Source: Mobula hypostoma
Lineage: Eukaryota
Length of the DNA: 64,000 nt
Reading direction: 5' to 3'
NCBI RefSeq assembly: GCF_963921235.1
Contig: NC_086097.1
Location: forward strand, 112,346,001 to 112,410,000
Below the pieces are notes generated by a model, which saw only the letters and a program-made list of their open reading frames with translations, ran no database searches and was not told the origin of the DNA. Position numbers and translations under genes: made by a program. Shown here piece by piece: positions 1 through 58,732 of the stretch (positions are counted from its first letter, which is position 1; each line of letters starts with the position of its first letter).

Positions 1-87
1 GATACAGATGGGTACAATTACAAAAAGACATTTTGATCGGCAGATGGATAAGGAAAGCTTTACATAGATATGAGCCAAGCACAGACA

Positions 88-8855: not shown

Positions 8856-10304
8856 CACACATAAAAGTTGCTGGTGAACGCAGCAGGCCAGGCAGCATCT
8901 CTAGGAAGAGGTGCAGTCGACGTTTCAGGCCGAGACCCTTCGTCAGGACTAACTGGAGGAAGAGTGAGTAAGGGATTTGAAAGTTGGAGGGGGAGGGGGA
9001 GATCCAAAATGATAGGAGAAGACAGGAGGGGGAGGGATGGAGCCAAGAGCTGGACAGGTGATAGGCAAAAGGGATACGAGAGGATCATGGGACAGGAGGT
9101 CCGGGAAGAAAGACAAGGAGGGTGGGGGGGGGGGACCCAGAGGATGGGCAAGGGGTATATTCAGAGGGACAGAGGGAGAAAAAGGAGAGCGAGAGAAAGA
9201 AAGTGTGTATAAAAATAAGTAATAGATGGGGTATGAGGGGGAGGTGGAGCATTAGCGGAAGTTAGAGAAGTCGATGTTCATGCCATCAGGTTGGAGGCTA
9301 CCCAGATGGAATATAAGGTGTTGTTCCTCCAACCTGAGTGTGGCTTCATCTTTACAGTAGAGGAGGCCGTGGATAGACATGTCAGAATGGGAATGGGATG
9401 TGGAATTAAAATGTGTGGCCACTGGGAGATCCTGCTTTCTCTGGCGGACAGAGCGTAGGTGTTCAGCAAAGCGGTCTCCCAGTCTGCGTCGAGTCTCGCC
9501 AATATATAAAAGGCCACATCGGGAGCACCGGACGCAGTATATCACCCCAGCCAACTCACAGGTGAAGTGTTGCCTCACCTGGAAGGACTGTTTGGGGCCC
9601 TGAATGGTGGTAAGGGAGGAAGTGTAAGGGCATTGTTCCGCTTACAAGGATAAGTGCCAGGAGGGAGATTAGTGGGGAGGGATGAGGGGGACGAATGGAC
9701 GAGGGATTTGCGTAGGGAGCGAGCCCTGAGGAATGCAGAAAGGGGGGGGAGGGAAAGATGTGCTTAGTGGTGGGATCCCGTTGGAGGTGGCGGAAGTTAC
9801 GGAGAATAATATGTTGGACCCGGAGGCTGGTGGGGTGGTAGGTGAGGACCAGGGGAACCCTATTCCTAGTGGGGTGGCGGGAGGATGGAGTGAGAGCAGA
9901 TGTACGTGAAATGGGAGAGATGCGTTTAAGAGTAGAGTTGATAGTGGAGGAAGGGAAGCCCCTTTCTTTAAAAAAGGAAGACATCTCCCTCGTCCTAGAA
10001 TGAAAAGCCTCATCCTGAGAGCAGATGCGGCGGAGACGGAGGAATTGCGAGAAAGGGATGGCGTTTTTGCAAGAGACAGGGTGAGAAGAGGAATAGTCCA
10101 GATAGCTGTGAGAGTCAGTAGGCTTATAGTAGACATCAGTGGATAAGCTGTCTCCAGAGACAGAGACAGAAAGATCTAGGAAGGGGAGGGAGGTGTCGGA
10201 AATGGACCAGGTAAACTTGAGGGCAGGGTGAAAGTTGGAGGCAAAGTTAATAAAGTCAACGAGCTCCGCATGCGTGCAGGAAGCAGCACCAATGCAGTCG
10301 TCGA
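8856..10304 (-). mobile_element. 5'-truncated Penelope-like retroelement (RT C-terminus, GIY-YIG endonuclease, pLTR)
   Basis: The minus strand starts at YIDDCIGAAS and ends with VIYCVRCSRCGLLYIGETRRRLGDRFAEH...FSNFR* (stop at 9252), with frameshifts. There is a 13-bp TSD, tgtaaaatc(a/g)cta, at 8843-8855 and 10305-10317. Confidence 0.92.
8914..8951 (-). ncRNA. Minimal type-I hammerhead ribozyme (Penelope pLTR), intact core
   Basis: The minus strand reads UAGUC-CUGACGA-AGGGUCUCGGCCU-GAAA-CGUC^GACUG. This gives the CUGANGA/GAAA core, stem I UAGUC/GACUG, a short stem II and a palindromic ACGU stem III. Confidence 0.8.
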
Positions 10305-13300
10305 TGTAAAATCGCTAGTTCGTTAAGCTGGTTTAAAAGTATACAACTTCAAGGGAAAATACAGGCTGTAGATTGCAGCGATAATATTCCAAAAGAGGTA
10401 TAGCGAGAAGTTTGGTGTGCAGCCTGCAAAATGTCGCTGTGCCTCACCAGCGCCATCTATTGCCCGGCAGCACTCATAATGACTGTGATGAAGTGCTTTG
10501 AGAGGTTGGTCTAGAATTAAGTCATGCCTGAGTGAGTATCTGGACCCATCGTAAATTACCTGCCTTAGGTCCACAGTGGATCCAATATTACTATCTCTCC
10601 AGCTGGACAACAATAATACTTATATGAGATTGCTGTTGATTACACTCAGCACTGAACATCATCTTCGCCTCAGTACTCATCAACAAGCTTTGAAACCTTG
10701 GCCTCCATACCTCCCTCTGAAACTGGATCTACTGCTTCCCTATTAGGAGACCACAATCAGTATAGATCAGTAATAACATCTTGTCCTAGCTAATAATCAA
10801 CCTATTAACACTTCCAGAATGCGTGTTTATCCCACTGCTCTGCTCTCTCTACACTCAAAACTCTGTGGTTAGGCACCGATCAAATTCTGTATATAAATTC
10901 ACCAATAACACTATTGCTGTTGGCAGAATCTCAAATGATGAGCAAAAGTATACAGGACTGAGAGAGATTGGCTAGTTGATCTAGCAACCTTGCACTCAAC
11001 ACCAGTAACACCAAGGATTTGATCGTGGACTTCAGGGAAGGAAGTCCAAAGAACACACAACTGTCCCCATTGACGGAAAATCAACGAAAAATGTGAGGAG
11101 CTTCAAGATCCAGGGGATCAGTATCTCGGAAGATCTATCCTGGGATCAACAGGTTGATGCAATTGCGATGTAGGTACACCAGCGCCTCTACTCCAGGAGT
11201 CTGAGTGGGTTTGGTATGTCATCAAAGAATGTTGCAAATTTCTGCAGATGTATGGTGGAGATCATTCTGATTGGTTCCATCACTGCAAGGATTGGACAAG
11301 GCTGCAGAGGATTGTAGACCCAGCTGCTTCATCATGAGCATGACCCTCCACATCATCAAAGACATCTTCACAAGGCAGTGCCTCAAGAAGGTTGCATCCA
11401 TCATTAACGACCCTCTGCTTGTCGCTGTCATTGGTGAGGAGATACAAGAGGCTGAAGACCCACAATCAAAGCTTTAGGACCAGTCCACTCCCTTCCAGCT
11501 TCAAATTTCTGAACGGTTTCTGAACTCATGAACATTACCTTGTTATTCCCCTTCGGTACTATTTATTTATTTGTTTCTAACTTACAGTAACGTTCTACCG
11601 CTAGTAACTGTACTGTTGCTGCAAAACAAGAAACTTCATGACATTGGATAATAAATCTGATTCTCATTCTGATTTATCTTCCTAATCTATAAGCTCTTCC
11701 AATTTATAAACTGAAGTAAACATGCATCACCGTCTTAATCCTCTTCCTTTTCCACATTCCCTTCTCCTTTGAGAAACCAAGATCCAGCAAAGTCAACCAG
11801 GAAGCTGATCGCGCTCTCAACTTTACAGAAGCCACCTGCCGACATAACGATACCTGATCTGATTTAGAACATATCATTCAACTCCAAGCTGGAGATGGTG
11901 AGAAAAAGAGCATATGTCCTGTAGCCAGAACAGAGGCAACGACAGCATAGGCTGAAGGGTGAGTTTTCAAACAGGACTGCAACAGACATTTCAGTCAAGA
12001 ACTAAGGCTGCAAGGAAGCTGAAGTTTTTGTACATAGATCATTTGCTCAACTGAGAGGCCTATCAGAAAATTTATCTAACATCAAGGAGAAAGTAACAAA
12101 GCAACTTGAGAAAAGGCTTTGTGTAGAATTTGAGCCAATTCTTTAAAATACAGAACAGGTTGTCAACTCTATGCACACATTCAAGGATTGCAACCATAAC
12201 AGAATATTTAATAACCAATGTCAGATCATCAATTGCAACAGAAACAGCAGTCATCATCACCCTGACTACTGCAGCAGAAGCTCTAGTTACTATGATGAAG
12301 GTCAATTTTGTGGCACTCAAATTTCGATTCTTATCTTCATGAACAGGGGTTACAATGTCAAAAGTGCCTTGTGGTTGTAACTGGGTCTGTTACCTTGTGG
12401 TTGTTACCTGCTTTATGCTCTTGGGAAGACACCATTCTTCTACTGACCCTTGTCAGATTGCAAACTCCTGTCAGAAGGAAATCAGACTCATTCAGTTCTA
12501 TGTCGCCGTGTGAAGGTGCAGATTGGCACTGCATTCTTGTGGTGCTCTGGGATGGGTCTGGTATCCACAGCCAAGATCTAACCTTCAACCCCAGACTTGT
12601 GCGACATTTACCTACTGCTTGTGTTAACAGGAATTAACTATCTGGAATCTGTTTTTTGAGATTTTGAATAAAATATCTATTTGCCATTGCTGCTCTTTGC
12701 TATTTCTAACCTAGCTGTCAGGTCAGAGTAACCAGAGTTAAGATTAGGACTGCATAAGATAAATTAGTATTGTTTAAATGATGAGAAACTAGAAATTGGA
12801 GAGGATCAAACAGGTTTGAGAATCCAAGTGAAGATATAATTTAATGTTAGTTGGTACAAGGATTTATTCTGAGGAATGGAGGGTCACTGGCCAGCAAGGA
12901 AAGTTGAAAGACACATCTAAAAAATTTTTGGGCCTGAAAGGCAGAAAAATACAAATGCTAGAAATCGGAAACAAAAATAGAAAATATTCATGATAAGCAC
13001 GTCAATCAGCATCTTTGGAGATAGAGAACTAGTATTTCAGTTTGACATTTCAACTATTTTTATTTTATCTTTTGGGCCCCATGCAGGCCCTTGCGATCTT
13101 ACATTCAAGGGTCCGCATGGAACTTCAATCTGAATGCTGCTTTCTTCATTGGGCCTGATCTAAATTGTTAATCACTGCCCTCCTTCCTGCAAGTGTCCTA
13201 CTCAATGATGGGGGCCAATAAGGAGCACGCCCGAGAGAAAGTTGGTTCACAGGGAGTAACAAGTTCAAATTCATTTCGCCGCATTCCTATCCTGTCCACA

Positions 13301-19334: not shown

Positions 19335-20975
19335 TAGAAACATAGAAATCTACAGCACATTACAGGCCCTTCGGCCCACAATATTGTGCCAACCATGTAA
19401 CCTACTCTAGAAACAGCCTAGAATTTCCTTACCACATAGCCCTCTATTTGTCTAAGCTCTGTGTACCTAAGAGTCTCTTAAAAGACCCTACTGTATCCGC
19501 CTCTACCACCTTCACTGGCAGTGCATTCCATGCACGCGCTACTTTCTGTGTGAAAATCACTACCTCTGAAATCCCCCTTGTACCTACTTCCAAGCATCTT
19601 AAAACTATGCCCCCTCATGTTATCCATTTCAGCCCTGGGAAAAAGCGTCTAGCTATCCACACGACCAATGCCTCTCATCATCTCATACATCTCTATCAGG
19701 TCTCCTCCCATCCTCCGTCGCCTCAAGGAGAAAAAGCCAAGTTCACTCAACCTATTCTCATAAGGCATGCTCTCCAACCCAGGCAACATCCTTGTAAATC
19801 TCCTCTGCTCTGTCTCGATAGTATCCACATGTTTCCTGCAATGAGGTGACCAGAACTGAATACATTACTGCAAGTGGGGTCTTATATAGCTGTAACGTTA
19901 CTTCACGGCTCTTGAACTCAATTCTATGGTTGATGAAGGCCAACGCATCATACGCCTTCTTAACAACACTATCAACCTACATAGCAGCTTTGAGTGTCCT
20001 ATGGACATGGCCTCCAAGATCTCGCTGATCCTCCATACTGCCAAGATTCTTACCATTTATATTCTATCTTCAAATTTGACCTACTGAAATAAACCACTTC
20101 ACACTTATCTGGTTTGAACTCCATCCGCCACTCTCAGCTCAGTTCCTGCATTCTATCGATGTCACCCGGAAACCTATGACAACCCTTCAGACTATCCACA
20201 ACACCCCCAACTTTTGTGTAATCAGCAAACTTACTAACCCATCCTTCTATTTCCTCATCCAGGTCATTTATAAAAATCACAAAGAGGAGGGTCCCGCGGA
20301 ACACTACTGATCACCGTCCTCCATGCAGAATACAAACCATCTACAACCACACTTTGCCTTCTGTGGTCAAGCCAATGCTGGATCCACAAAGCAAGGTCTT
20401 GCATACATTCTGAATGAGCCTTGCATGGGGAACCTTATCAAATGCCTTACTGAAATCCATATACACTACATCCACTGCTCTACCTTCATCAATGTGTTTT
20501 TTTACATCCTCAAAGAATTCAATCAGGCTCATAAGGCATGACCTGCCCCTGACAAAGCCATGCTGACTATCCCTAATCAGATTATGTCTCTCCAAATGCT
20601 CATAAATCCTGCCTCTCAGGATCTTCTCCAACAACTTGCCCACCACTGAAGTAAGAGTCACTGATCTGTAATTTCCAGGGTTATCTCTATTCCCTTTCTT
20701 GAACAAGGGAACAACATTTGCAACCTTCCAACCCTCTGGTACTTCTCCTGTCCCTATTGATGATGCAAAGATTATTGCCAGAGGCTCAGCAATCTCCACT
20801 TTCACTTCCCATCATTGCTTGGGGTATATCTCATCCAGTCCCGGCAGCTTATTGAACTTAATACCTTTCAAAAGCTCTAGCACATCCTCTTTCTTAATAT
20901 CTATATACTCAAGCATTTTGGTCCACTGTAACTCATCCCCACAATTGCCAAAGTCCCTTTCACTGGTGAATACCC
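19335..20975 (-). mobile_element. CR1 (HER1-like) LINE, 5'-truncated
   Basis: WKVANVVPLFKKG..PGNYR..SQHGF..VYMDFSKAFDKVPH, with a catagaaa 3' tail. Confidence 0.92.
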
Positions 20976-26295: not shown

Positions 26296-28829
26296 GATCC
26301 TCCTTTATCCTAGCGTGGGTCTTCATTTTCCATTGTTATCCTCTTTTTCTTCATAAAATGCCTTGGGATTCTCCTTGATCCTGCACACCAAGGACATTTC
26401 ATGGCTCCTTTTGCCCTGCCTAATTGCTGATCTAAGCACTTTTTCTGCTACCTTTATAATCCACAAGTGCCCAGTCTGAATTTAGATTTCTAAACTTTAC
26501 TTATGCTTCCTTTTTCTTCCTGTTATGCTGCTGGCATTTAGGGCAGCAATGGAAGTCCCTCATCTCTGGCGGTGTTCAGGGCTTCCTTCATTGTGTCAGT
26601 AGCTCAGTTATTGCCTGGCAGCAGTTGCATCCAGTTCAGGCCCCTGAGCTCCCAACTTGTCGGAATTTGCCCTCCCCAAGTTTAGTACCTTCCCGCAATA
26701 TCTGACTTTATTCTTATTACAATGAATGTTGCATTCTCACTGCTCCAAGATCCTGGGTTCAACCTGTGCTGTTTGCCTCTTCTCTAATCGCAGGGCTTTC
26801 CTCTAGGTGTTCCAGTTTCCTCCCACATCCCAAGGACACACTCAGGTAGGTTAATAACAAAAATAATCAAAGGAGAGTTGATGGGTCTTGTGAGAGAGAT
26901 TAAGTTGCAAAGGTACAGGGAAATATGGAAAGGGATAAGGGAGCTACTGGGTCTGCTCTCTTGGGAGTCGGCATGGACTCCTTGGGCAAAAAATCTTCCT
27001 TCCATGTCATGCTGACTCTAAGTCTTCTGAGTACTTGAGAGCTCTGCTTCGTTAGCACCAGTGTAGGTTTAAGCACGGGTCTCAGAGAAGATTTGTACTG
27101 GGAACCTATCTCAGGTGTTCATTCTTTTGAGTTAAAAACTTACTCTTCGCATCAGATCTTCCCCAAACCCCTCAGATCACTACCTCTCCATTAAAATCCA
27201 GCTACAATTACTGCCACCCCATTACCACTGGTGGCCAATTATACCCAACATTACAATGAGGTCTGACTTAACTCTCTAAAGCTCAAGCTCTTTCCATCTA
27301 TACCTGCCTTTCATTCATGATCCATGAATTAATCAGCAAAGGCGTCAGCAAATTCATTGCCTAAGGACCAACAGGTGGCACATTATGCCCACCAATTTAT
27401 TTTTGGCCAACATACACTGCTGATTTAATAGGTGTATCCAGGTGGTCACAAAACAATCCCCAGGCCAAGGGATTTCAGAGGGCAGTGTCCCATTGTGGTC
27501 TTCTCCCTCTGAACGAACTTTACCGTATTCCCCTTTACCATATTTCTGCATAGCTGGGTAAATATTTACTTTTCAAGCACAAATTCCTTGTGAAACTGGT
27601 AAATGACTTTGCTTTCATCAAGCCTTCAGACTGTGCACTCCAGCTAACAGCAACTTGCAATATCATTTCTCTCCCACTTCCTTGTTTTTTTTTGTCAGTT
27701 GTCTCAGAGTAAATTGCTGCACCATATTAACAGCTGAATACTTAACAAGACATCATTAGGTTTCATATTCCAATCCATTATTGGGTATATTCCTAGTAAC
27801 CAAATAGGCTTTCTAATTCCTTTAATATCTTGGTATAAAACACTGATATTCCTGAAATATTCAGATATTATGATATCTTAAAAGTAGCAAGAAGAAACTG
27901 CCATGATCTCAGTAATCATCAACACAAGAAATACTTTTGCATGTTCATTACTGTCACCAAATTGACAGTGCATTTTTGGTATATTTTGTTAATTACTGTG
28001 AAAGGGTGAAAGGGTAGTCATCCACGCTGGCAAGGCCATCAAACTGTGGGGCAGTGCATGACAGAACTACAGGTAGTTGTATTTGTCTTTAATTTCACTT
28101 ACACCCTTACGGGAAACATCATTCTAATTGTTTCATTAATAATAGAGCCAGGACTGGTATTGAACCAATGATGATTGAAAAAATTGTCTATTTTATGACA
28201 CAAGGAACAGAAACACCAATCTATAGTGAAAATATCTTTCTTTTGTAAAGCCATATTTACTGTCAATAAGTAGATCAGCTGACAGTGATCAGAGCCGCAG
28301 TAAGCCATTCCCACCTGCAGCTTGGAACTGTGGATTAGTTATTCCCAATGCCAATCATCTGGTTATCTGTACTCTGTAGCCATTCTTGCATTCTATGTTA
28401 TTCTATTAGGCTAGAATTCATAGCGAGGAAGGATGGTGGTAAAAGGAGAGTACATGCCATTTCTCAGTGTGGTTTATAAAAGTACGCTTTTGTGAAAGTA
28501 ACCTTTGAATCACCTACAATCTTCACCAAAAATAAGTCAACACCAGGATTATTCAAAATTTTCAGTGATGACCTTGAATAGAAGAGAAACTATTTGTCTT
28601 TTTAATCAACATAAACTGCTGCATGTGATCACAAGCAAAGAGGACAATATTAGCTAAAAAGGGTGCACACAGCAAAGGTTCTTGCTACACTAAATAGATA
28701 ATGGTCACACAAACAGAAGGGAATTCTTTGGGTCCACACAGAGGAGGGCAGTGAGGTATTAGGGGATGAGGATCTTTTAAAGTTAGCTCTAAGGCTATTT
28801 AAACCAACTACATGGTGGTTAGACTTTAC

Positions 28830-29273
28830 CTGACATCATTTTCAGAGTATCGCCTTTGCATATCCTCTTTATTCTTTTGTTTCTTCCCTGTCTCGTCTTC
28901 CTCCTCCTCCTCCTTCTCCTCCTCTTCCCCCTCCTCCTCCTCTTTCTTCCCCTCTTTCCCTTCATCCTCCTCCACTTTCTCTTCCTCCTCCTTCTTCTTG
29001 TCCTTTGCCTCCTCCTCCTCATCTTTCCCTTTCACCTCTTCTCTCTCTTCCAACTCCGCACATTCCTCTTGCTCACATTCCTCTTGTTCTTCCTTTGGTT
29101 TGCTTTCTTCCCCCATATCCTCATTATCCTCTTTATTCTCACTGGCGTTTACTTTTTCGCCCTCCCCATATTTCCTTGTCACCTCTTCCTCCTCTACTTC
29201 AGCCTCCAACTCTGCCTCTTCCTTGTCCCCTTCTTCCCCTCCATCTTTCTTTTCTTCTAATGCTTTTGACCGC
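28830..29273 (-). CDS. RIMS2: Glu/Lys-rich symmetric cassette exon of RIMS2 (444 nt, phase 2-2): RSKALEEKKDGGEEGDKEE...KEDMQRRYSENDV
   Basis: Acceptor ttttgcaatttgatcttcag|G and donor CAG|GTAAAG. The frame is open, the length is a multiple of 3, and the phase matches the phase-2 end of exon 32707-32879. Confidence 0.8.
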
Positions 29274-30925
29274 CTGAAGATCAAATTGCAAAATAATGGA
29301 GGCATGCAAGACAGAATAAAACAAAAAATGATATTAGCTGCAATAAAAGGGATGAAAGAATTCCAAAAGGAAAAAAAACTAAAATTAAACAAGCAAGCAA
29401 TCTATGTAATAAACATTGTTTTGCATCAAATCACAGATAATTCAGAATAATTCTAAGCACAGTCAGTAATTTATATCTATTTTCTATACCAGATTTAATT
29501 AGAAACAAACCAAACATAATATTTGTAAATGCTCTTACAATATTATTTTATGAATTGATATTTCAACAATAACTATTGTAGTATAACACATAAATTAATA
29601 ATATATAGTAATTGACCAGCAATGCTGATGTCCCCAGTTGGGCCCTTGATCTATGACTTTGTTTTCCATTAACCTGATTTTTAAATGTTGGTTTATTGAC
29701 TCAAGTTCTTGAACTCATTGAACAGGCAGTAATCTGATGGAGCACATGAAAAGCCAATTGCAAAAAGAAACCAATTCTATATTTATGTAAGAAGCCCTTC
29801 ATATTGAGGATAAATATCTCATTGACCATTAATTTCTAATTCTGCTTTAACCTTTAAACATCTTTTATCCATGTGGCATTTTGTGTATGGGTGGTTCAGC
29901 AATATTAATAAGAAAGCTCCATTGCACTGAAATTCAAGAGACAAAAGGAAGTGATGAATTAGGGCTAATGGCAGCATCTGATTTGGTGCCATTCAGCCAC
30001 CTGACCAGGTGTAGTGTCGCTACACTGTACATACCTCAGTTATGACGTAGCTCTTCCATTGTAAATTCTACACTAACATTGTGATATGCAAACCACATAG
30101 ATGTTTTATATTATTTTCTAACAATCTTACTAATATTTATTGTAGCTGTGAAGCGTAAGAAATGAGAGCATAACCGGCTTGATAAGTAACTAGTTATGTA
30201 CTTAAGAACTGATTTGTTACTCAACTGAATGCTTTTACACTCTGTGCATGTACTTATGCCAACCCAGAAAAATCACAATATTCTCCTTTAGAAGACAAGT
30301 TGAGCTGCTCTTCCCATTATCACTTCCCTAATTTCACAGTTATATTTCAAGTTTGGCAGTAAGGGGAAACACTAATGGAAACAAAAATGAAATTGACTTT
30401 GCTATTTTGGCCCTTGGAATAATAGCAATGTAGAGATGTGTTTCTTGCAACAGGTTGATGTCTTGTAAATGGGGATTATAGTGGTGTTAGTGATGGTACT
30501 TGTAGTGTTGGTGTTGTTGTTGGTGGTGGTTACAGCAGAGCACGGGCATGGAATAAGAAAAATCTTTGCCTGGTCACCAACAGATAAGCTGTTTTTTGTT
30601 TTTCCAAAAGAAACCTGGAATATATTGAGTCTTCAATACACTTCTTCATGAAAGGATTTACTAAAATAACATGTTGTTTTAGTATTTATTTCTTCCAAAT
30701 GAAAGATGCTTGTAACACTGCTTTGATTGACAAACTGGTTAATTATAGACAAATGCAAGATCAGTATATTTTTGAAGTGAAAAAACATTGGAGAAATGTT
30801 GGCATTCAGAAGCATTTGGCATCCAAAAGTATAGTGGCAGACTTAGTGATCTGAATTTGTAAGTCCAAGAATTTTGTATTAGATATTGCTTCTGTGGGAA
30901 TCCCAGACTTTGTGCTGTTTAAATG

Positions 30926-31625
30926 GGTAAACGGGAGGGTGGAGAAGATGGCGGTGCGATGGTAGTGCGCGTGGCCACTTCGGTGATGAATATCTGTTAT
31001 CTGTCAAGTAGAGGGCCGTGCACAATCCTGATTTGATTGAGACAGACGTGACAGCACAGCGGAACATCTGGAAAACTTCTGAAATGCCGCTTTGCTGCCG
31101 CTGCTACTGTGTGGAAACTGTTATCTCCGGAGCTGAAGGCCCCAAAATCCTCGGCTTTGTGTGTTTCAGTGGCCAGGGAGAGGTCAAAGGCGCTCGGCAG
31201 AGGGTGGCGCTCGGGAGGCGGTATCGGAAAGGCTACTCGGAAGCTTGGAGTTTTTGGATGGATGGACTCAGGGTCGGCTGGGGTCGGCTGCTTCCTCGGT
31301 ATCGGCAAGTTGACGGTGCCTGGAGGTTTATGGCAGGGAGTTTCTCCCTTTTGCCGCCTGCTATCGGGGACTCGGGAGTCGATCGACTCGGGACTTTGAG
31401 ATTTTTTTTTACTGTGCCCATGGTCTGTTCTTTATCAAATTATGGTATTGCTTTGCACTGCTTTAACTATATGTTATAATTATGTGGTTCTGTTCGTGTT
31501 AGTCTTGGTCTGTCCTGTTTTCTGTGATATCACTCCGGAGAAACATTGTATCATTTCTTAATGCATGTACGCATTTCTAAATCACAATAAAAGAGGACTG
31601 AGTGTTCTCATAATCTAATCTAACC
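30926..31625 (+). mobile_element. Young CpG-rich non-autonomous retroelement with a Rex-like 3' tail
   Basis: Head aagatggcgg, then aataaaa and a (taatc)n tail, with a possible TSD taaatg (30920-30925, 31626-31631). Confidence 0.65.
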
Positions 31626-32706
31626 TAAATGCTCAAGGCTTTGCTCAGAACTGTCAGCATAGGCAGAGCTAGGTTTATAACCTGCAGTCCATGGACCCCT
31701 TGCTTAATGGCATTGGTCCATGGCATTAAAAAGGGTTGCTAATCCCTTGGCTAGAGTGATGCAGTTCATAATAATTAATGCCTTGACAAAGTAGATGTTG
31801 TGAAAATGTGGAGTCAAGGCTCGGGGCTTAAAGTCTTAAAGTAAGCAGATGGCCATTTTGTAATGAGAAGAGGAGACACTTATGCACTCAAAAGATTGTT
31901 CACAAATGGAATTCTCTACCCTTAAGGAGTATAAATATTTCTGCTGCAGAGTACATTAAAGACATACATTGAGAAACTTCCGCACAGGTAATCAGTGGAT
32001 ACCGGTGGGGAAACAGAAGCAGTACAGAGAATTGGGAACGGAGTACTACATTAATCATGATATTGGAAGTGTCAACAACTGTCCTATTCCAACTCCTACT
32101 TCTAGAGTCAATACAGCATGGATACAGGCCCTTTGGCCTAACAAGTACATGCAGACCATGGTGCCCATCCAGTTTGTCCCAATTTCCTGCACTAGACCCA
32201 TATCCCTCTGAGCCCCTCTCCTCTATCCATCTGCTTCTTGACTAATTTCTTGCAGTCTTTTGAAAAGTGAAACACAATGGACAATTGTGCAAGATATTTC
32301 TCAAGCCGCACTATTTAACACATTTGTTTCATTATATAAACAACATTGCCTGGTGTATAATGACGACGCTATTTACTGTGCAGTGTCTTTGTGAGTGCTG
32401 ATGACTCAGCATTGCCATATGCACCAGGCAACACTGCTTAGCCCAATGCTTAGCAATAATGTTATAATACTGAGGTTTCTGAATGTCTGAAATGGGTTGT
32501 TGTATGGTTTAAAAAAATAAAGATGGATATTACTAGAAAGAATAAAATTATTTAACTCAAAAAATCTATGAAGAAGCAACATTCCAAATATAAAACTCAC
32601 TTAAGGTGTAAGAGTGAAGTACTATCTCATTAATCAAACTGTTTAAACCTGAGACAAATGAATTGAGTAATATTCTACATAAGGTAACACCATCACTGGG
32701 TCTCAC

Positions 32707-32879
32707 CTGATCTTCCTGGTTGTTCGAGGATGCTCAGACTGCACAGACATGTAACTTGTACTGCTCATTCGTGAAGCGCTACTTGTCCTTGATACGGCAG
32801 ACACGTCACTTACATCGCTGTCTGATGACTTGTTAGAGATATTATCTGACCCTCGGTGTGTGTCTCGTCCCAACCGATG
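32707..32879 (-). CDS. RIMS2: RIMS2 internal exon (173 nt, phase 0 to 2): HRLGRDTHRGSDNISNKSSDSDVSDVSAVSRTSSASRMSSTSYMSVQSEHPRTTRKI
   Basis: Acceptor ttttcaatag|CAT and donor CAG|GTGAGA. SSDSDVSDVSAVSRTSSASR..SSTSYMSVQSE is the RIM Ser-rich block. SYMSVQSE matches RIM2 rather than RIM1 (SFMSEQSE). Confidence 0.95.
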
Positions 32880-37379: not shown

Positions 37380-37458
37380 CAGGGGTTCCAACTTGGGGTC
37401 CACAGGCCTCTCGGTTAATGGGAGGGGTCCATGGCATAAAAATGGTTGGAAACCCTTG
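37380..37458. mobile_element. ~80-bp hAT MITE (same family)
   Basis: caggggttccaac...ggttggaaacccttg, with TSD ccttaaag/ctttaaag. Confidence 0.78.
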
Positions 37459-38065: not shown

Positions 38066-39120
38066 TTAGTTCAAGTTCAAATTCAAGTTTAATTGACATT
38101 CCCCATACATGAATACCCATGAATACAGAAAAATATAACAGCATTACTCCAGGGCCAAGGTGTAAAACTAATAATTATACACAGCAACAAGGCACATACA
38201 GCAAATATAAGACAGCAAGTATATATAAGATACCAATAGAATACAGTTACACACAAAAAATATCATCCAAGCCCTGGAGTCCATGAATGTTGCAGCAGTC
38301 TGCAGTTGAACACAATATAGTTTATCTTCTGCTGAGGAAATACTAGGGGGCAGCACCAAATCCAGCATGGACTCCACACTGTCTCCGGTACTCCGGTGGA
38401 GTGCTCGACTCTGACGCCTCTGCCTCAGGTGGCTGCGGAGAGGCAACACCACGGCTTGAGGCCCAGTATTCTCTATGACCACGGGTTGAGGCCCAGTACT
38501 CACTATGACCACGGCTTGAGGCCCAGTATTCTCTATGACCACGGCTTGAGGCCCAGTACTCACTATGACCACGGCTTGAGGCCCAGTTCTCACTATGACC
38601 ATGGCTTGAGGCCCAGTTCTCTCAATGACCACGGCTTGAGGCCCAGTACTCTCTATGACCACGGCTTGAGGCCCAGTTCTCACTATGACCACGGCTTGAG
38701 GCCCAGTTCTCTCAATGACCATGGCTTGAGGCCCACTACTCTCTATGACCAACTCACCCAACGTCCACCCCCGCAGTTCGCCATTAAGCCAATGAATTGG
38801 ACTTGCAACATTCCACACCACCAATGTCTAACAGGGTCTTGTGATCACAAGAAAAGCCACTAAGATGATCACTCACTGTTAGACTGCACTTATCCTTTAT
38901 GCACTGATGCCCTCTCTGCTGCTGGCAGTATCACAGTCTACCATGTCCAGCCCCTTCAGTTTCTCAATGAGCAACTCAATGATGGGGTATACCTGCAGTA
39001 CTTTAAGTTCTCAATGTCTGGCAGGACCTTGTGATCATAAAAAATGTGTTTAAAAAAGACAGCTACACCTTTGGTTGACTCTATAGAAGCCGTTGCATCG
39101 GAGTGCGCTGCCATCTTACC
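38066..39120 (-). mobile_element. Non-autonomous retroelement (head GGTAAGATGGC, (ttgaac)n tail) hosting a minisatellite
   Basis: Tail gttcaagttcaaattcaagtttaatt at 38069 and head gccatcttacc at 39110-39120. There is no coding capacity. Confidence 0.6.
38451..38750. repeat. 30-bp minisatellite, 10 units (consensus acggcttgaggcccagtactctctatgacc)
   Basis: Directly visible tandem units starting at 38451, 38481 ... 38721, with recurrent variant positions. Confidence 0.97.
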
Positions 39121-48984: not shown

Positions 48985-50762
48985 AAATCATTAGAAAGAA
49001 GTGATATAGGATTAGAAGGCATAGAAGCCTTGTCGGTTGAGTTAAGAAACTAGGGGTAAAAAAAACCTGCTGGGAGCTATATACAGTCCTCCAAAGCATA
49101 GCCAGATGTGGGGTACAAATTACTACAGGAGATAGAAAAGCCATGTTAAAGGGCAATGCCTCAATGGCAGTGTTGGATTTTAATATGCGGGTAAAGGGGC
49201 ACCATTGTTGACAGTGGTTAGCGTGACACGATTACAACTTGGGGCATCAGAGTTTGGAGTACAATTCTGATGCCACTTGTAAGGAATTTGCACGACCTCC
49301 GTATAATATTTGTATGTTTCTTCCAGGTGCTCTGGTTTCCTCCCACAGTCTAAAGATGTACCGGTTAGTAGGTTAATTTGTTGTTGTAAATTGTCCTGCG
49401 ATTAGGCTAGGGTTAAATGGGTGGGATGCTGGACAGTACGGCTCAGTGGAAATAAATAAAGTCACCTGGATCGGGTGGACTACAACCCAGGATCCTAAAA
49501 GAGGTAGCTGAAGAAATTGTAGAGGCTTTTACAGTGATGTTTCAAGAAAAACTACTTTGTACAACGATTCCGGAGGACGAGAAAATTGTAAATATCACTC
49601 CACTCTTTAAGAAGAGAGGGAGGAAAAAGACTAGAAGTTATGGGCCAGTTAGTCTGACTTCAGTGGTTGGCAAGAAGTTAGAATCCATTGTTGGGGACGA
49701 CATTTCAAGGTATTTGGAAGCACATGATAAAATAGGCTCAAGTCAAGCATCTTTCCATCAGGGTAATCTTGCCTGATATAGCTGTTAGAATACTTTGAGG
49801 AAATAATGGTCAGGATTGACAAAGGAGAGTCAGTGGATGTTATTAACTTAGATTTTCAGTAGGCCTTTGACAAAATGCCACACCTGAGGCTGCGGAACAA
49901 GATAAGAGGCTGTGGCATTACGGGAAAGATACTAGCATGGATAGAGGGTTGGCTGACTGGCAGGAGGCAAAGAGTGGGAATAAAGGGAGCTTTTTCTGTT
50001 TGGCTGCTGGTGACTGGTGATGTTCTACAGGGGTCTGTGTCTGGTCTGCTACTTTTTACATTATATGTTAATGATCTGGATGATGGATTTGATGGCTTTG
50101 TGGCCAAGTTTGCAGATGATACAAAGATCGGTGGAGGGGCAAGTAGTATTGAGGAAGCAGGGAGTCTGCGGAAGGCCTTGGACAGATTAGGAAAATGGGC
50201 AAAAAGTGGCAGACAGGATACTGGGGAAGTGTTTAAACATAAAGATGTAATACTGAGGCTTTATAAGGCATTGTTCAGACCACACTTGAATCACAGGAAT
50301 TAAAGAGTTTATGTTTGAGAATCGTTTGCTGGCTCTGGGCCTGTATTCACTAGTATTTAGAAGAATGAGGGAAATCTTGTTGAAACCTACAAAATATTGT
50401 AAGGCCTACATGTAGTGGACATGGATGGGATATTTCTAAATAGTGTGAGAGTCTAGGACCAGATTGCACAGCCTCAGAAGAGAATGATATCCCTTTAGAA
50501 CAATGATGAGGAGGAACTTCTTTAGCCAGAGGGAGGGTGATGAATCTGTGGAATTTATTACCACAGAACGCTGTGGAGGCCAAGTCATTGGGCATGTTGA
50601 AAGTAGTGGTTGATAGGTTCTTGATAAGTAGAGACATCAAAGGTTATAGAGAGAAGTGAGGAGAATGTGGTTGGGAGGGATAATAAATCAGCCATTTTAG
50701 AATGATGGAACTATAGCGGAACAGACATGTTGAGTTGAATAGCTCCTATATCATAAGGTCTT
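48985..50762 (+). mobile_element. CR1 LINE with an internal deletion and a nested V-SINE (~49200-49460)
   Basis: NITPLFKK..YGPVSLTSVVGK and GDVLQGSVSG..VAKFADDTKIGG. Confidence 0.88.
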
Positions 50763-55319: not shown

Positions 55320-55426
55320 CTTAGAATGGTATTCCTGTTCCAGCCTGGAATCTGATGCTGCCACCTGCTTGTACTTGTTCATTTTCATTTTCATTTGGCG
55401 AGTTCTTTCTTCCATGTCCATTGAAC
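55320..55426 (-). CDS. RIMS2: RIMS2 internal exon (107 nt, phase 1 to 0): xSMDMEERTRQMKMKMNKYKQVAASDSRLEQEYHSK
   Basis: Acceptor ttttctctacag|GTTCA and donor AAG|GCAAGT (GC donor). The peptide matches recalled mammalian RIM2 (AMDIEERNRQMKINKYKQVAGSDPRLEQDYHSK). It joins in frame to exon 32707-32879. Confidence 0.93.
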
Positions 55427-57825: not shown

Positions 57826-58732
57826 CATAGAAACATAGAAACATAGAAAACTGACAGCACAATATAGGCGCTTCGGCCCAAAAAGTTATGCCAAACATGC
57901 CCATACCTTGGAAATTACTAGGCTTACCCATAGCTCTCTATTTTTCTAAGCTCCATGTACCTATCCAAGTCTCTTGAAAGACCCTAACATATCTGTCTCC
58001 ACCACCGTTGCTGGCAGCTCATTCCACACACTCACCACTCTCGGAGTAAAAAGCTTACCCCTGACATCTCCTCTGTACGTACTCCCCAGCACCTTAAACC
58101 TGTGCCCTCGTGTGGCAACCATTTCAGCCCTGGGAAAAAGCCTCTGATTATGCACATGATCAACACCTCTCATTGTCTTATATACCTCTATCAGGTCACC
58201 TCTCAGCCTCCATCGCTCCACAGAGAAAAGGCTGAGTTCACTCAACCTGTTTTCATAAGGCATGCTCCCCAATCCAGGCAACATCCTTGTAAATGTTCTC
58301 TGCACCCTTTCTATGGCTTCCACATCCTTTGTATAGTAAGGTGACCAGAATTGAGCACAGTACTCCAAGTGGGGTCTGACCAGGGTTCTCTATAGCTGCA
58401 ACATTACCTCTTGGCTCCTAAATTCAATTCCATGATTAATGAAAGCCAGTACACCGTATGCCTTCTTAACCACAGAGTCAACCTGCGTAGCAGCTTTGAG
58501 TGTCCTAAGGATTCTATGAGATCCCTCTGATCCTCCACACTGCCAAGAGTCTTACCATTAATACTATATTCTGCCATCATGTTTGACCTACCAGGATAAA
58601 CCACCTTACACTTATCTGGGTTGAACTCCATCTGCCACTTCTCAGCCCAGTTTTGCATCCTCTCAATGTCCCGCTGTAAACTCTGACAGCCCTACATACC
58701 ATCCACAACACCTCCAACCTTTGTGTCATCAA
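57826..58732 (-). mobile_element. CR1 (HER1-like) LINE 3' fragment (more CR1 3' ends at ~1355-1620, 17030-17350, 18555-18820, 35580-36270, 51515-51800, 55865-56060, 63913-64000)
   Basis: [10 protein letters not shown]...[14 protein letters not shown], with a (catagaaa)n tail. Confidence 0.9.

What the first reader, a model, noticed from the sequence alone, without database searches (positions are those of the whole stretch)
28830..29273. Large Glu-rich cassette exon inserting a ~148-aa acidic tract into RIM2
Seen: canonical splice sites, symmetric phase 2-2, in frame with the preceding RIMS2 exon, and 60 Glu among the 147 full codons (hand count), built from GAG/GAA/AAG repeats. Known: RIM2 is heavily alternatively spliced in the linker before C2B, and the canonical protein runs directly from ..KI|S into VFTSKMQ. 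Inference: this is a lineage-expanded acidic, disordered spacer. I recall, unverified, a much shorter acidic exon at this position in some predicted tetrapod isoforms. It could alter active-zone scaffold spacing or phase separation, or be a glutamylation substrate like RPGR-ORF15.
Basis: partly seen in the sequence, partly recalled or inferred. Interest (0 to 1): 0.72.

Follow-up and report, generated by a model that had tools for sequence, protein, structure and literature searches.

The report
Ancient acidic photoreceptor exon of RIM2
This is a real optional exon of the synapse-scaffold gene RIMS2. It is very old, its mouse counterpart is used almost only in rod photoreceptors, and sharks and rays have lengthened it into a long negatively charged stretch whose function has apparently not been tested.

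Summary
In detail: a 444-nt, AG/GT-bounded, phase 2-2 exon (29273>28830, minus strand) adds 148 residues (60 Glu in 147 full codons) to RIMS2 of a ray-like elasmobranch. It is not lineage-new. Database models place an orthologous exon at the same junction in 9 chondrichthyan species, non-teleost ray-finned fishes, axolotl, reptiles, birds and mammals (79-102 aa), and a 54-aa, barely acidic version in two hagfishes. Elasmobranchs expanded it to 126-153 aa. Matching exon sizes (101/173/252/242 nt) identify its mouse orthologue as chr15:39586534-39586785, listed in two papers' supplementary tables as photoreceptor-enriched (86% inclusion in rods, 0% in brain, 1% in hair cells). The window's flanks carry a weak Musashi/RBFOX-type signature. 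Inclusion turns the basic linker before C2B (about +12) roughly neutral in bony vertebrates and to -27 to -36 in elasmobranchs. Best reading: a photoreceptor-selective polyanionic spacer that tunes RIM2 at the ribbon synapse; the function is inferred. No usable RNA was found for this species. I found no paper discussing the exon. It may be dispensable, like other conserved photoreceptor exons.

The parts
28830..29273 (-). Acidic RIMS2 cassette exon, 444 nt, phase 2-2, +148 residues, net charge -41 over its 147 full codons
   Evidence: orthologous exon at the same junction in database models
28830..28873 (-). Conserved 3' end of the exon: basic-KED(L/M)QRR(F/Y)S(E/Q)(N/D)D, with an RRxS PKA-type consensus (consensus recalled)
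   Evidence: mean column identity 0.83 against 0.59 for the middle; RRxS in 22 of 31 rows; deleted in 4 of 4 birds
29232..29273 (-). Conserved 5' end of the exon (RSKALEEKK.GG)
   Evidence: mean column identity 0.73 over the first 14 columns
29057..29086 (-). Two tandem 15-nt units coding for (Q)EEC(E/A); the same Cys pentapeptide occurs 5-8 times in sharks and skates
29274..29423 (-). Pyrimidine-rich acceptor region (68% pyrimidine over 150 nt) ending in CAG
29303..29308 (-). UGCAUG (RBFOX-type element) 35 nt upstream of the acceptor; a repressive role is inferred from a recalled positional rule
   Evidence: 3.7% of 100-nt windows of this strand hold one
28789..28810 (-). Cluster of three UAG (+20, +33, +39) behind the GTAAAG donor, Musashi-type; three more at +138, +143, +174
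   Evidence: 2.4% of 6,394 60-nt windows have such a cluster, 6.8% of 6,380 200-nt windows have 6 or more UAG; no such cluster behind the other two exons' donors
32707..32879 (-). Upstream RIMS2 exon, 173 nt, Ser/Arg-rich, ends in phase 2; intron to the acidic exon 3,433 nt
   Evidence: same size as the mouse upstream exon
55320..55426 (-). Preceding RIMS2 exon, 107 nt, with a GC donor (22,440-nt GC-AG intron)
   Evidence: mouse counterpart 101 nt

Best explanation
An ancient vertebrate RIMS2 cassette exon, used mainly in photoreceptors, that inserts a disordered polyanion into the basic Ser/Arg-rich linker between the PxxP region and the C2B domain. SHOWN: exon anatomy and frame; orthologues from hagfish to mammals; expansion in elasmobranchs; the charge change of the linker (about +12 without the exon; 0 to -14 with it in bony vertebrates; -27 to -36 in elasmobranchs; about -28 for this copy if its downstream linker equals the stingray's). 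SHOWN IN MOUSE ONLY, with orthology inferred from exon sizes and order: about 86% inclusion in rods and about 0% in brain. INFERRED: Musashi binding the downstream UAG cluster switches it on in photoreceptors, and RBFOX at the upstream UGCAUG helps keep it off in other neurons. INFERRED MECHANISM: the acidic tract cancels the linker's positive charge and lengthens the tether to C2B. This weakens non-specific binding to acidic membranes and self-association, and so modulates how C2B reaches PIP2, liprin-alpha and Ca-channel subunits at the ribbon base. Net charge and length, not the middle sequence, are what matter, so the middle can grow by repeat slippage. Step odds: real exon 0.98; orthologue of the mouse rod exon 0.93; photoreceptor-selective in this animal 0.75; charge/spacer tuning as its function 0.5.
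For: 13 of 120 chondrichthyan RIMS2 proteins carry the exon at this junction and 107 lack it, so it is optional. It is also present in bichir, reedfish, sturgeon, bowfin, gar, axolotl, lizards, tuatara and turtles, in birds, crocodile, mink and otter, and in a bat and two hagfishes. The hagfish 3' end matches the gnathostome end profile at the junction (0-2 of 2,000 shuffles reach the score). Mouse exon chr15:39586534-39586785 is 252 nt = 84 codons, the length of the mink, otter and bat exon. It lies behind a 173-nt exon (window: 173) and a 101-nt exon (window: 107; the bat peptide is two residues shorter), and ahead of a 242-nt exon (1+240+1 nt from P0004). Inclusion is 0.77-0.81 in wild-type and 0.35-0.41 in photoreceptor-less Aipl1-/- retina (PMC4991804 suppl. 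file 3). It is 86.5% in rods, 0 in brain, 5.6 in DRG, 1.05 in hair cells and at most 9.3 in any other column (PMC6952364 suppl. file 3). UAG clusters downstream mark photoreceptor exons, and photoreceptors lack RBFOX (passages); the window has both elements. The ends are conserved (0.73 and 0.83) and the middle less so (0.59); acidity is kept in all 31 rows (33-50% D+E). RIM2 sits at the ribbon base; C2B binds liprin-alpha, PIP2 and Ca-channel subunits, and RIM forms condensates with RIM-BP.
Against: No RNA evidence exists for this species. The mouse exon's sequence was not seen, so orthology rests on sizes and order. The splice motifs are short, were picked after looking, and are only modestly rare (2.4-8% of windows); I could not test their conservation. 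Musashi dependence of the mouse exon could not be read (PMC9509328 Supplementary Data 2-4 too large; its coordinates were found in 0 of the 11 readable files). The 35-41% inclusion left in Aipl1-/- retina shows it is not photoreceptor-exclusive within the retina. Five photoreceptor exons, four of them conserved, were dispensable in mice. A RIM1alpha construct lacking alternatively spliced exons of this linker region is the standard rescue construct in hippocampal neurons. The hagfish version is hardly acidic (net -1 to -4). No binding or condensate experiment supports the charge mechanism.
Confidence: 0.5

Rival explanations
1. Tolerated passenger: the exon is spliced in photoreceptors and kept in frame, but its peptide does little. 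The elasmobranch length comes from neutral slippage of purine-rich repeats in a disordered linker.
For: Conserved photoreceptor exons of Ttc8, Cep290, Cc2d2a and Cacna2d4 were dispensable (PMC9509328 passages). Length varies from 54 to 153 aa, and the expansions differ in make-up between stingrays (E/K-rich, 1-2 Cys) and sharks/skates (6-8 Cys). Birds lost the most conserved motif. RIM1alpha tolerates loss of exons and tag insertion in this region.
Against: The frame and both ends are kept from chimaera to mammals, and the 3' end back to hagfish; acidity is kept in 31 of 31 gnathostome rows. The dispensable conserved exons were microexons of 30 nt or less, not 250-450-nt charge-changing inserts.
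Confidence: 0.25
2. Motif carrier: the working part is the conserved 3' motif, a PKA-type RRxS site or a short docking motif that gives photoreceptor RIM2 an extra regulatory site. The acidic middle only exposes it.
For: The last 14 columns are the most conserved part (0.83) and the only part recognisable in hagfish; RRxS is present in 22 of 31 rows and in the bat.
Against: The motif is deleted in 4 of 4 birds, and RR is lost in catshark, fence lizard, crocodile, mink and otter (9 of 31 rows lack RRxS), while the acidic body stays. That RRxS is a PKA consensus is recalled; no phosphorylation data were seen.
Confidence: 0.13
3. Electroreceptor or general ribbon-synapse adaptation: the long elasmobranch form serves ampullary or hair-cell ribbons.
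For: Rims2 is expressed in paddlefish ampullary organs and neuromasts (PMC5429088 passages). The expansion is confined to elasmobranchs. The residual inclusion in Aipl1-/- retina could come from ribbon-bearing bipolar cells (inference).
Against: Mouse Atoh1+ hair cells include the exon at about 1% (probably immature cells). Chimaera, sturgeon, bichir and axolotl (electroreceptive, recalled) have 87-102 aa, the same range as gar, bowfin and amniotes.
Confidence: 0.07
4. Rigid single-alpha-helix (E/K) rod setting a fixed distance between the PxxP region and C2B.
For: AlphaFold2 without an alignment models residues 60-144 as one helix (pLDDT 70-92 there, pTM 0.34). The window's i+3/i+4 charge pattern is reached by 5 of 1,000 shuffles.
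Against: Only 3 of 31 rows reach 50 or fewer of 1,000 shuffles. The exon has 12 Gly/Pro and a net charge per residue of -0.28. Single-sequence models of such tracts often show helix (own knowledge).
Confidence: 0.03
5. Polyglutamylation substrate like RPGR-ORF15.
For: It is a purine-rich, Glu-rich, photoreceptor-enriched exon.
Against: The longest Glu run is 5 and there are only two EEEG/GEEE motifs. It is an internal cassette in a presynaptic protein, whereas ORF15 is a terminal Glu-Gly repeat exon with a basic tail in a ciliary protein (recalled).
Confidence: 0.02

Closest known systems
Mouse Rims2 cassette exon chr15:39586534-39586785 (mm10), in suppl. tables of PMC4991804 and PMC6952364
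   Same: Same gene and exon order with matching neighbour sizes (101/107, 173/173, 242 nt); frame-preserving; 252 nt equals the 84-aa mink/otter/bat exon
   Different: The window exon is 444 nt (1.76 times) with about three times the net charge (-41 against -13/-14 in mustelids). Neither paper names Rims2 in its main text (0 occurrences).
RefSeq/UniRef predicted RIMS2 isoforms of Hypanus sabinus (P0029) and Hemitrygon akajei (P0030)
   Same: Same exon and junction, 77-78% identity over its length, 153 and 150 aa
   Different: Computer models without tissue or function; the window copy differs in its run lengths
Musashi-promoted photoreceptor 'switch-like' exons (Ttc8 2A, Cep290, Cc2d2a, Prom1)
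   Same: High in rods and absent from brain (mouse orthologue); UAG cluster in the proximal downstream intron
   Different: Several of those are microexons in ciliary genes; this is a 250-450-nt exon in a presynaptic scaffold. Musashi dependence was not seen.
Srrm4-dependent Rims2 exons 12 and 18 (PMC3464207 Table S2) and the RBM5-dependent exon 20-22 block (PMC7381114)
   Same: Alternative exons of the same gene
   Different: Exons 12 and 18 have other, non-acidic sequences. The 20-22 block is a three-exon unit changed in cortex; I could not map it.
RPGR exon ORF15 (recalled, not looked up)
   Same: Purine-rich, Glu-rich, photoreceptor isoform
   Different: Terminal, much longer Glu-Gly repeat with a basic tail, ciliary; here internal, with short E runs, and synaptic

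Membership tests
RIMS2 cassette exon | Lies between RIMS2 exons, in frame, with AG/GT sites and a length divisible by 3 | tested here: met
RIMS2 cassette exon | Included and skipped isoforms both exist | tested here: met
   In database models of relatives: 13 of 120 with and 107 without; in mouse reads
RIMS2 cassette exon | Junction reads in this species | tested here: inconclusive
   No RNA holder listed; the 4 runs laid matched only short low-complexity patches and an intronic repeat
Orthologue of mouse Rims2 252-nt exon | Same exon order and neighbour sizes; length equal to the mammalian peptide | tested here: met
Orthologue of mouse Rims2 252-nt exon | Sequence match to the mouse exon itself | not testable with these tools
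   No mouse or human exon-plus protein was returned; the tables give coordinates only
Musashi-type photoreceptor exon | High inclusion in photoreceptors, skipped elsewhere | tested here: inconclusive
   Met for the mouse orthologue; no data for this species
Musashi-type photoreceptor exon | UAG cluster in the proximal downstream intron | tested here: met
   Three UAG at +20/+33/+39; 2.4% of windows; weak, one species
Musashi-type photoreceptor exon | Inclusion falls in Msi1/Msi2 knockout | not testable with these tools
   The relevant file of PMC9509328 is too large to read
RPGR-ORF15-like glutamylation substrate | Long Glu-Gly repeat in a terminal exon with a basic tail (features recalled) | tested here: not met
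   internal exon
RPGR-ORF15-like glutamylation substrate | Glutamylated by TTLL enzymes | not testable with these tools
   needs experiment
Single alpha-helix (ER/K) domain | Conserved i+3/i+4 E-K/R pattern, few helix breakers | tested here: inconclusive
   Significant in the window, in 3 of 31 rows overall; 12 Gly/Pro

The most novel reading that the evidence does not exclude
Vertebrate photoreceptors have, since before the hagfish split, made their own RIM2 through one exon that acts as an electrostatic dial. It grew from a near-neutral 54-aa piece to a linker-neutralising 80-100 aa in most jawed vertebrates, and to a charge-inverting 126-153 aa in sharks and rays. It would retune RIM2 condensation and C2B/Ca-channel coupling for tonic release at the ribbon. 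If so, it is an unstudied determinant of ribbon versus conventional active zones and an overlooked exon of the cone-rod synaptic disorder gene RIMS2.
Probability: 0.25. Interest if true: 0.7.

Novelty: new member of a known kind. Interest (0 to 1): 0.4.

Why it matters
[quoted passage not shown] If most rod transcripts carry this exon, as the mouse tables say, experiments with brain-type cDNAs use a linker of different charge from the native rod protein. The exon gives a single-exon knockout and a natural series (hagfish, bird, mammal, ray) to test whether linker charge tunes active-zone assembly. Its existence is already in databases and supplementary tables; what is added here is the link between the acidic peptide, the rod-specific splice event, its age and the elasmobranch expansion.

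Tried and rejected
No whole genome is held for this window, so the downstream exons and orthologous introns could not be read. RNA: no RNA holder listed (best share 0.06). I laid 4 of the 24 listed runs: within the exon the listed pieces were 35-42-nt low-complexity patches, and no splice joint was seen. This is no evidence either way. Pfam: 0 families on the exon peptide. ESM Atlas: no usable hit. Earlier findings: none by sequence or by words. Lineage-new exon: rejected. The optional 8-residue piece behind the exon as a microexon inside the window: no match with splice sites; the 242-nt mouse exon size fits an alternative 3' splice site instead. Srrm4-regulated Rims2 exons are other exons. 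A paralogous exon in RIMS1: salmon P0362 has a 51-aa basic insert at the same junction, but neither end scores above shuffles (1,480 and 1,177 of 2,000); left open. The 49-54-aa acidic inserts of three otophysan RIMS2-like proteins likewise fail the end-profile test. Dropped row: Acipenser_a in the linker-charge count (C2B anchor misplaced), leaving 29 of 30 species rows. The region for one search was set by guess; it covered the upstream exon and the first 59 residues of the tuatara insert, and the list was cut at 120, so mammals are under-sampled and human, mouse, frogs and most teleosts were not seen. Paper searches listed no paper on this exon.

Full report
1. Observation. On the minus strand, 29273..28830 is a 444-nt segment between a pyrimidine-rich CAG acceptor and a GTAAAG donor. 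One frame is open for 147 codons (60 E, 10 D, 24 K); the others hold 11 and 5 stops. It is the most purine-rich 444-nt stretch of the window, and 8 of 10,000 base shuffles keep that frame open. The exon 3,433 nt upstream (32879..32707, 173 nt) ends in phase 2, so the segment joins in frame and adds 148 residues.

2. Gene context. The upstream exon is 100% identical to RIMS2 of rays, so the window is from a ray-like elasmobranch; no genome is held for it. The 120 proteins map to three places in the window only: 55426..55320 (107 nt, GC donor), 32879..32707, and the acidic exon. The next exon lies more than 28.8 kb further on, outside the window. In the stingray model P0029 the exon starts at residue 1233, between C2A (841-950) and C2B, which begins about 170 residues behind it.

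3. It is a cassette exon already in database models. Of the 120 chondrichthyan proteins, 13 carry it at exactly this junction and 107 lack it. They come from 6 of the 19 species listed; one search adds three more, giving 8 elasmobranchs and the chimaera. For 12 listed species no exon-plus model appeared, which fits tissue-restricted use or loss; I could not tell which. The closest copies (Hypanus, Hemitrygon) are 77-78% identical.

4. Age and length. The exon is found at the same junction in bichir, reedfish, sturgeon, bowfin, gar, axolotl, lizards, tuatara and turtles, in birds, crocodile, mink and otter, and in a bat. Lengths are 148 aa in the window, 126-153 in 8 elasmobranchs, 92 in chimaera and 79-102 in 21 bony-vertebrate rows. 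Two hagfishes have a 54-aa insert there whose end matches the gnathostome end profile (0-2 of 2,000 shuffles; net charge -1 to -4). So the exon predates the jawed/jawless split, and the expansion is specific to elasmobranchs. The ends are conserved (column identity 0.73 and 0.83) and the middle less so (0.59). Sharks and skates carry 5-8 Cys pentapeptide repeats, stingrays and the window 1-2 plus E/K-rich runs; 20 of 21 bony rows have a Cys in the middle and the chimaera has none. The 3' end holds RRxS in 22 of 31 rows and is deleted in 4 of 4 birds. Human, mouse, frog and most teleost proteins were not among the hits, because the lists are cut.

5. Tissue. No usable RNA exists for this species in the tools. 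Two supplementary tables list a mouse Rims2 exon, chr15:39586534-39586785, of 252 nt (84 codons, the length of the mink, otter and bat exon). Its neighbours measure 101, 173 and 242 nt. The window has 107 and 173 nt (the bat peptide of the first is two residues shorter), and P0004 implies 242 nt for the downstream exon. I take this as the orthologue; its letters were not seen. Its inclusion is 0.77-0.81 in wild-type retina and 0.35-0.41 in retina without photoreceptors (PMC4991804). It is 86.5% in rods, 0 in brain, 0.09 in Purkinje cells, 5.6 in DRG, 1.05 in Atoh1+ hair cells and at most 9.3 in any other column with data (PMC6952364). Neither main text names Rims2.

6. Splicing signature. Both papers report UAG clusters just downstream of photoreceptor exons, and one reports that photoreceptors lack RBFOX. 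The window has UAG at +20, +33 and +39 (2.4% of 6,394 windows have such a cluster; none behind the other two donors), six UAG in 200 nt (6.8% of 6,380 windows), and UGCAUG at -35 (3.7% of windows). These are weak, chosen after looking, and from one species. That upstream RBFOX sites repress is recalled. Whether the mouse exon needs Musashi could not be read.

7. Mechanism. From the upstream exon to C2B the linker carries +11 to +14 without the exon in 29 of 29 usable rows. With the exon it carries 0 to -14 in 20 bony rows, -6 in chimaera and -27 to -36 in 8 elasmobranchs (one sturgeon row dropped). The window's exon (-41) would give about -28. C2B binds PIP2, liprin-alpha and Ca-channel subunits, RIM condenses with RIM-BP, and RIM2 sits at the ribbon base. 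The simplest reading is a polyanionic, mostly disordered spacer that cancels the linker's charge and lengthens the tether to C2B in photoreceptors. This step is inference. Against it: conserved photoreceptor microexons were dispensable in mice; RIM1alpha works without its alternatively spliced exons in this region; and the hagfish exon is hardly acidic. Rivals are a tolerated passenger, a carrier of the RRxS motif, an electroreceptor adaptation, a stiff E/K helix (AlphaFold2 without alignment draws one helix, but only 3 of 31 rows show the pattern) and an ORF15-like glutamylation substrate (longest E run 5).

8. Known or new. The exon exists in RefSeq/UniRef models and, for mouse, as rows in two supplementary tables. 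Ten searches listed no paper that describes its peptide or function; most subscription papers, including the original RIM splice-site descriptions (recalled, not seen), are outside the library. It is a member of the RIMS2 cassette exons (met, except for reads in this species). It works like a Musashi-type photoreceptor exon (mouse tissue pattern met, dependence untested). It is not an ORF15-type tract.

9. What I saw of each paper. PMC4991804: passages and rows of suppl. files 1-4 (files 2 and 3 cut when stored, file 11 unread). PMC6952364: passages, one row and part 1 of suppl. file 3. PMC9509328: passages, the file list and a coordinate search of 11 files; four files too large, among them the knockout splicing tables. 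PMC3464207: one passage and rows of suppl. files 5, 7, 13 and 14 (file 15 searched without a hit; files 1 and 16-18 not searched). PMC4387716: one passage and a supplement search without a hit (file 6 not searched). PMC7381114, PMC8330894, PMC5429088, PMC11536687, PMC7273530, PMC10169678, PMC11055734 and bioRxiv 10.1101/2023.10.27.564439: passages only. All others: search listings only. Unseen supplements may hold Musashi, cone, bipolar-cell or human data on this exon.

10. Verdict. Real, old and already annotated. Its link to a rod-specific splice event and the charge inversion in elasmobranchs make it a modest, testable lead. Novelty: new member of a known kind. Interest 0.4.

Noticed in passing
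window 55320-55426 (-) and intron 32880-55319: The preceding RIMS2 exon (107 nt) uses a GC donor (AAG|gcaagt), giving a 22,440-nt GC-AG intron.
   Followed up: partly
elasmobranch proteins: Coupled splicing in the models: 0 of 37 exon-plus elasmobranch proteins keep the optional 8-residue piece of the next exon, against 98 of 108 exon-minus ones (6 of 151 not classifiable). In bony vertebrates 149 of 191 exon-plus proteins keep it. Models of one species are not independent counts.
   Followed up: partly
P0362 (Oncorhynchus nerka RIMS1-like): A 51-aa basic insert at the same junction with an internal RRFSQ; a possible paralogous exon, but its ends do not score above shuffles.
   Followed up: partly
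P0368, P0370, P0511 (otophysan fishes): RIMS2-like proteins with a 49-54-aa acidic insert at the same junction but unrecognisable ends.
   Followed up: partly
bird proteins P0171, P0230, P0254, P0258: Birds lack the 16 or so residues holding the otherwise most conserved 3' motif; the crocodile keeps a changed form.
   Followed up: partly
P0031, P0354, P0101, P0111, P0340, P0349: Shark and skate exons hold 6-8 Cys in (E/K)xC pentapeptide repeats, while most bony vertebrates have one; unexplained (metal or redox role possible).
   Followed up: no
P0034, P0038 (Narcine bancroftii): The electric ray has a different, basic 46-aa insert at this junction, with no convincing match in the window. Mouse also has a further 78/92-nt optional exon before the 242-nt exon.
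   Followed up: partly
P0005, P0032, P0033, P0035, P0036, P0103: Short (530-667 aa) models with the acidic exon and C2B only; either internal starts or model artefacts.
   Followed up: no
window 30960-31735: High-copy interspersed repeat in the intron upstream of the exon (very deep cover in run X22), with a 144-codon stop-free frame at 31431-31000; its end recurs at 37390-37448.
   Followed up: no
window 38448-38751: Tandem array, 30-bp unit, 10.1 copies, 91% matches, stop-free on both strands.
   Followed up: no
window 9255-10314, 20344-20811, 49863-50300, 57964-58389: Stop-free frames that read like decayed retroelement reverse-transcriptase or endonuclease pieces; judged by eye, not searched.
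   Followed up: no
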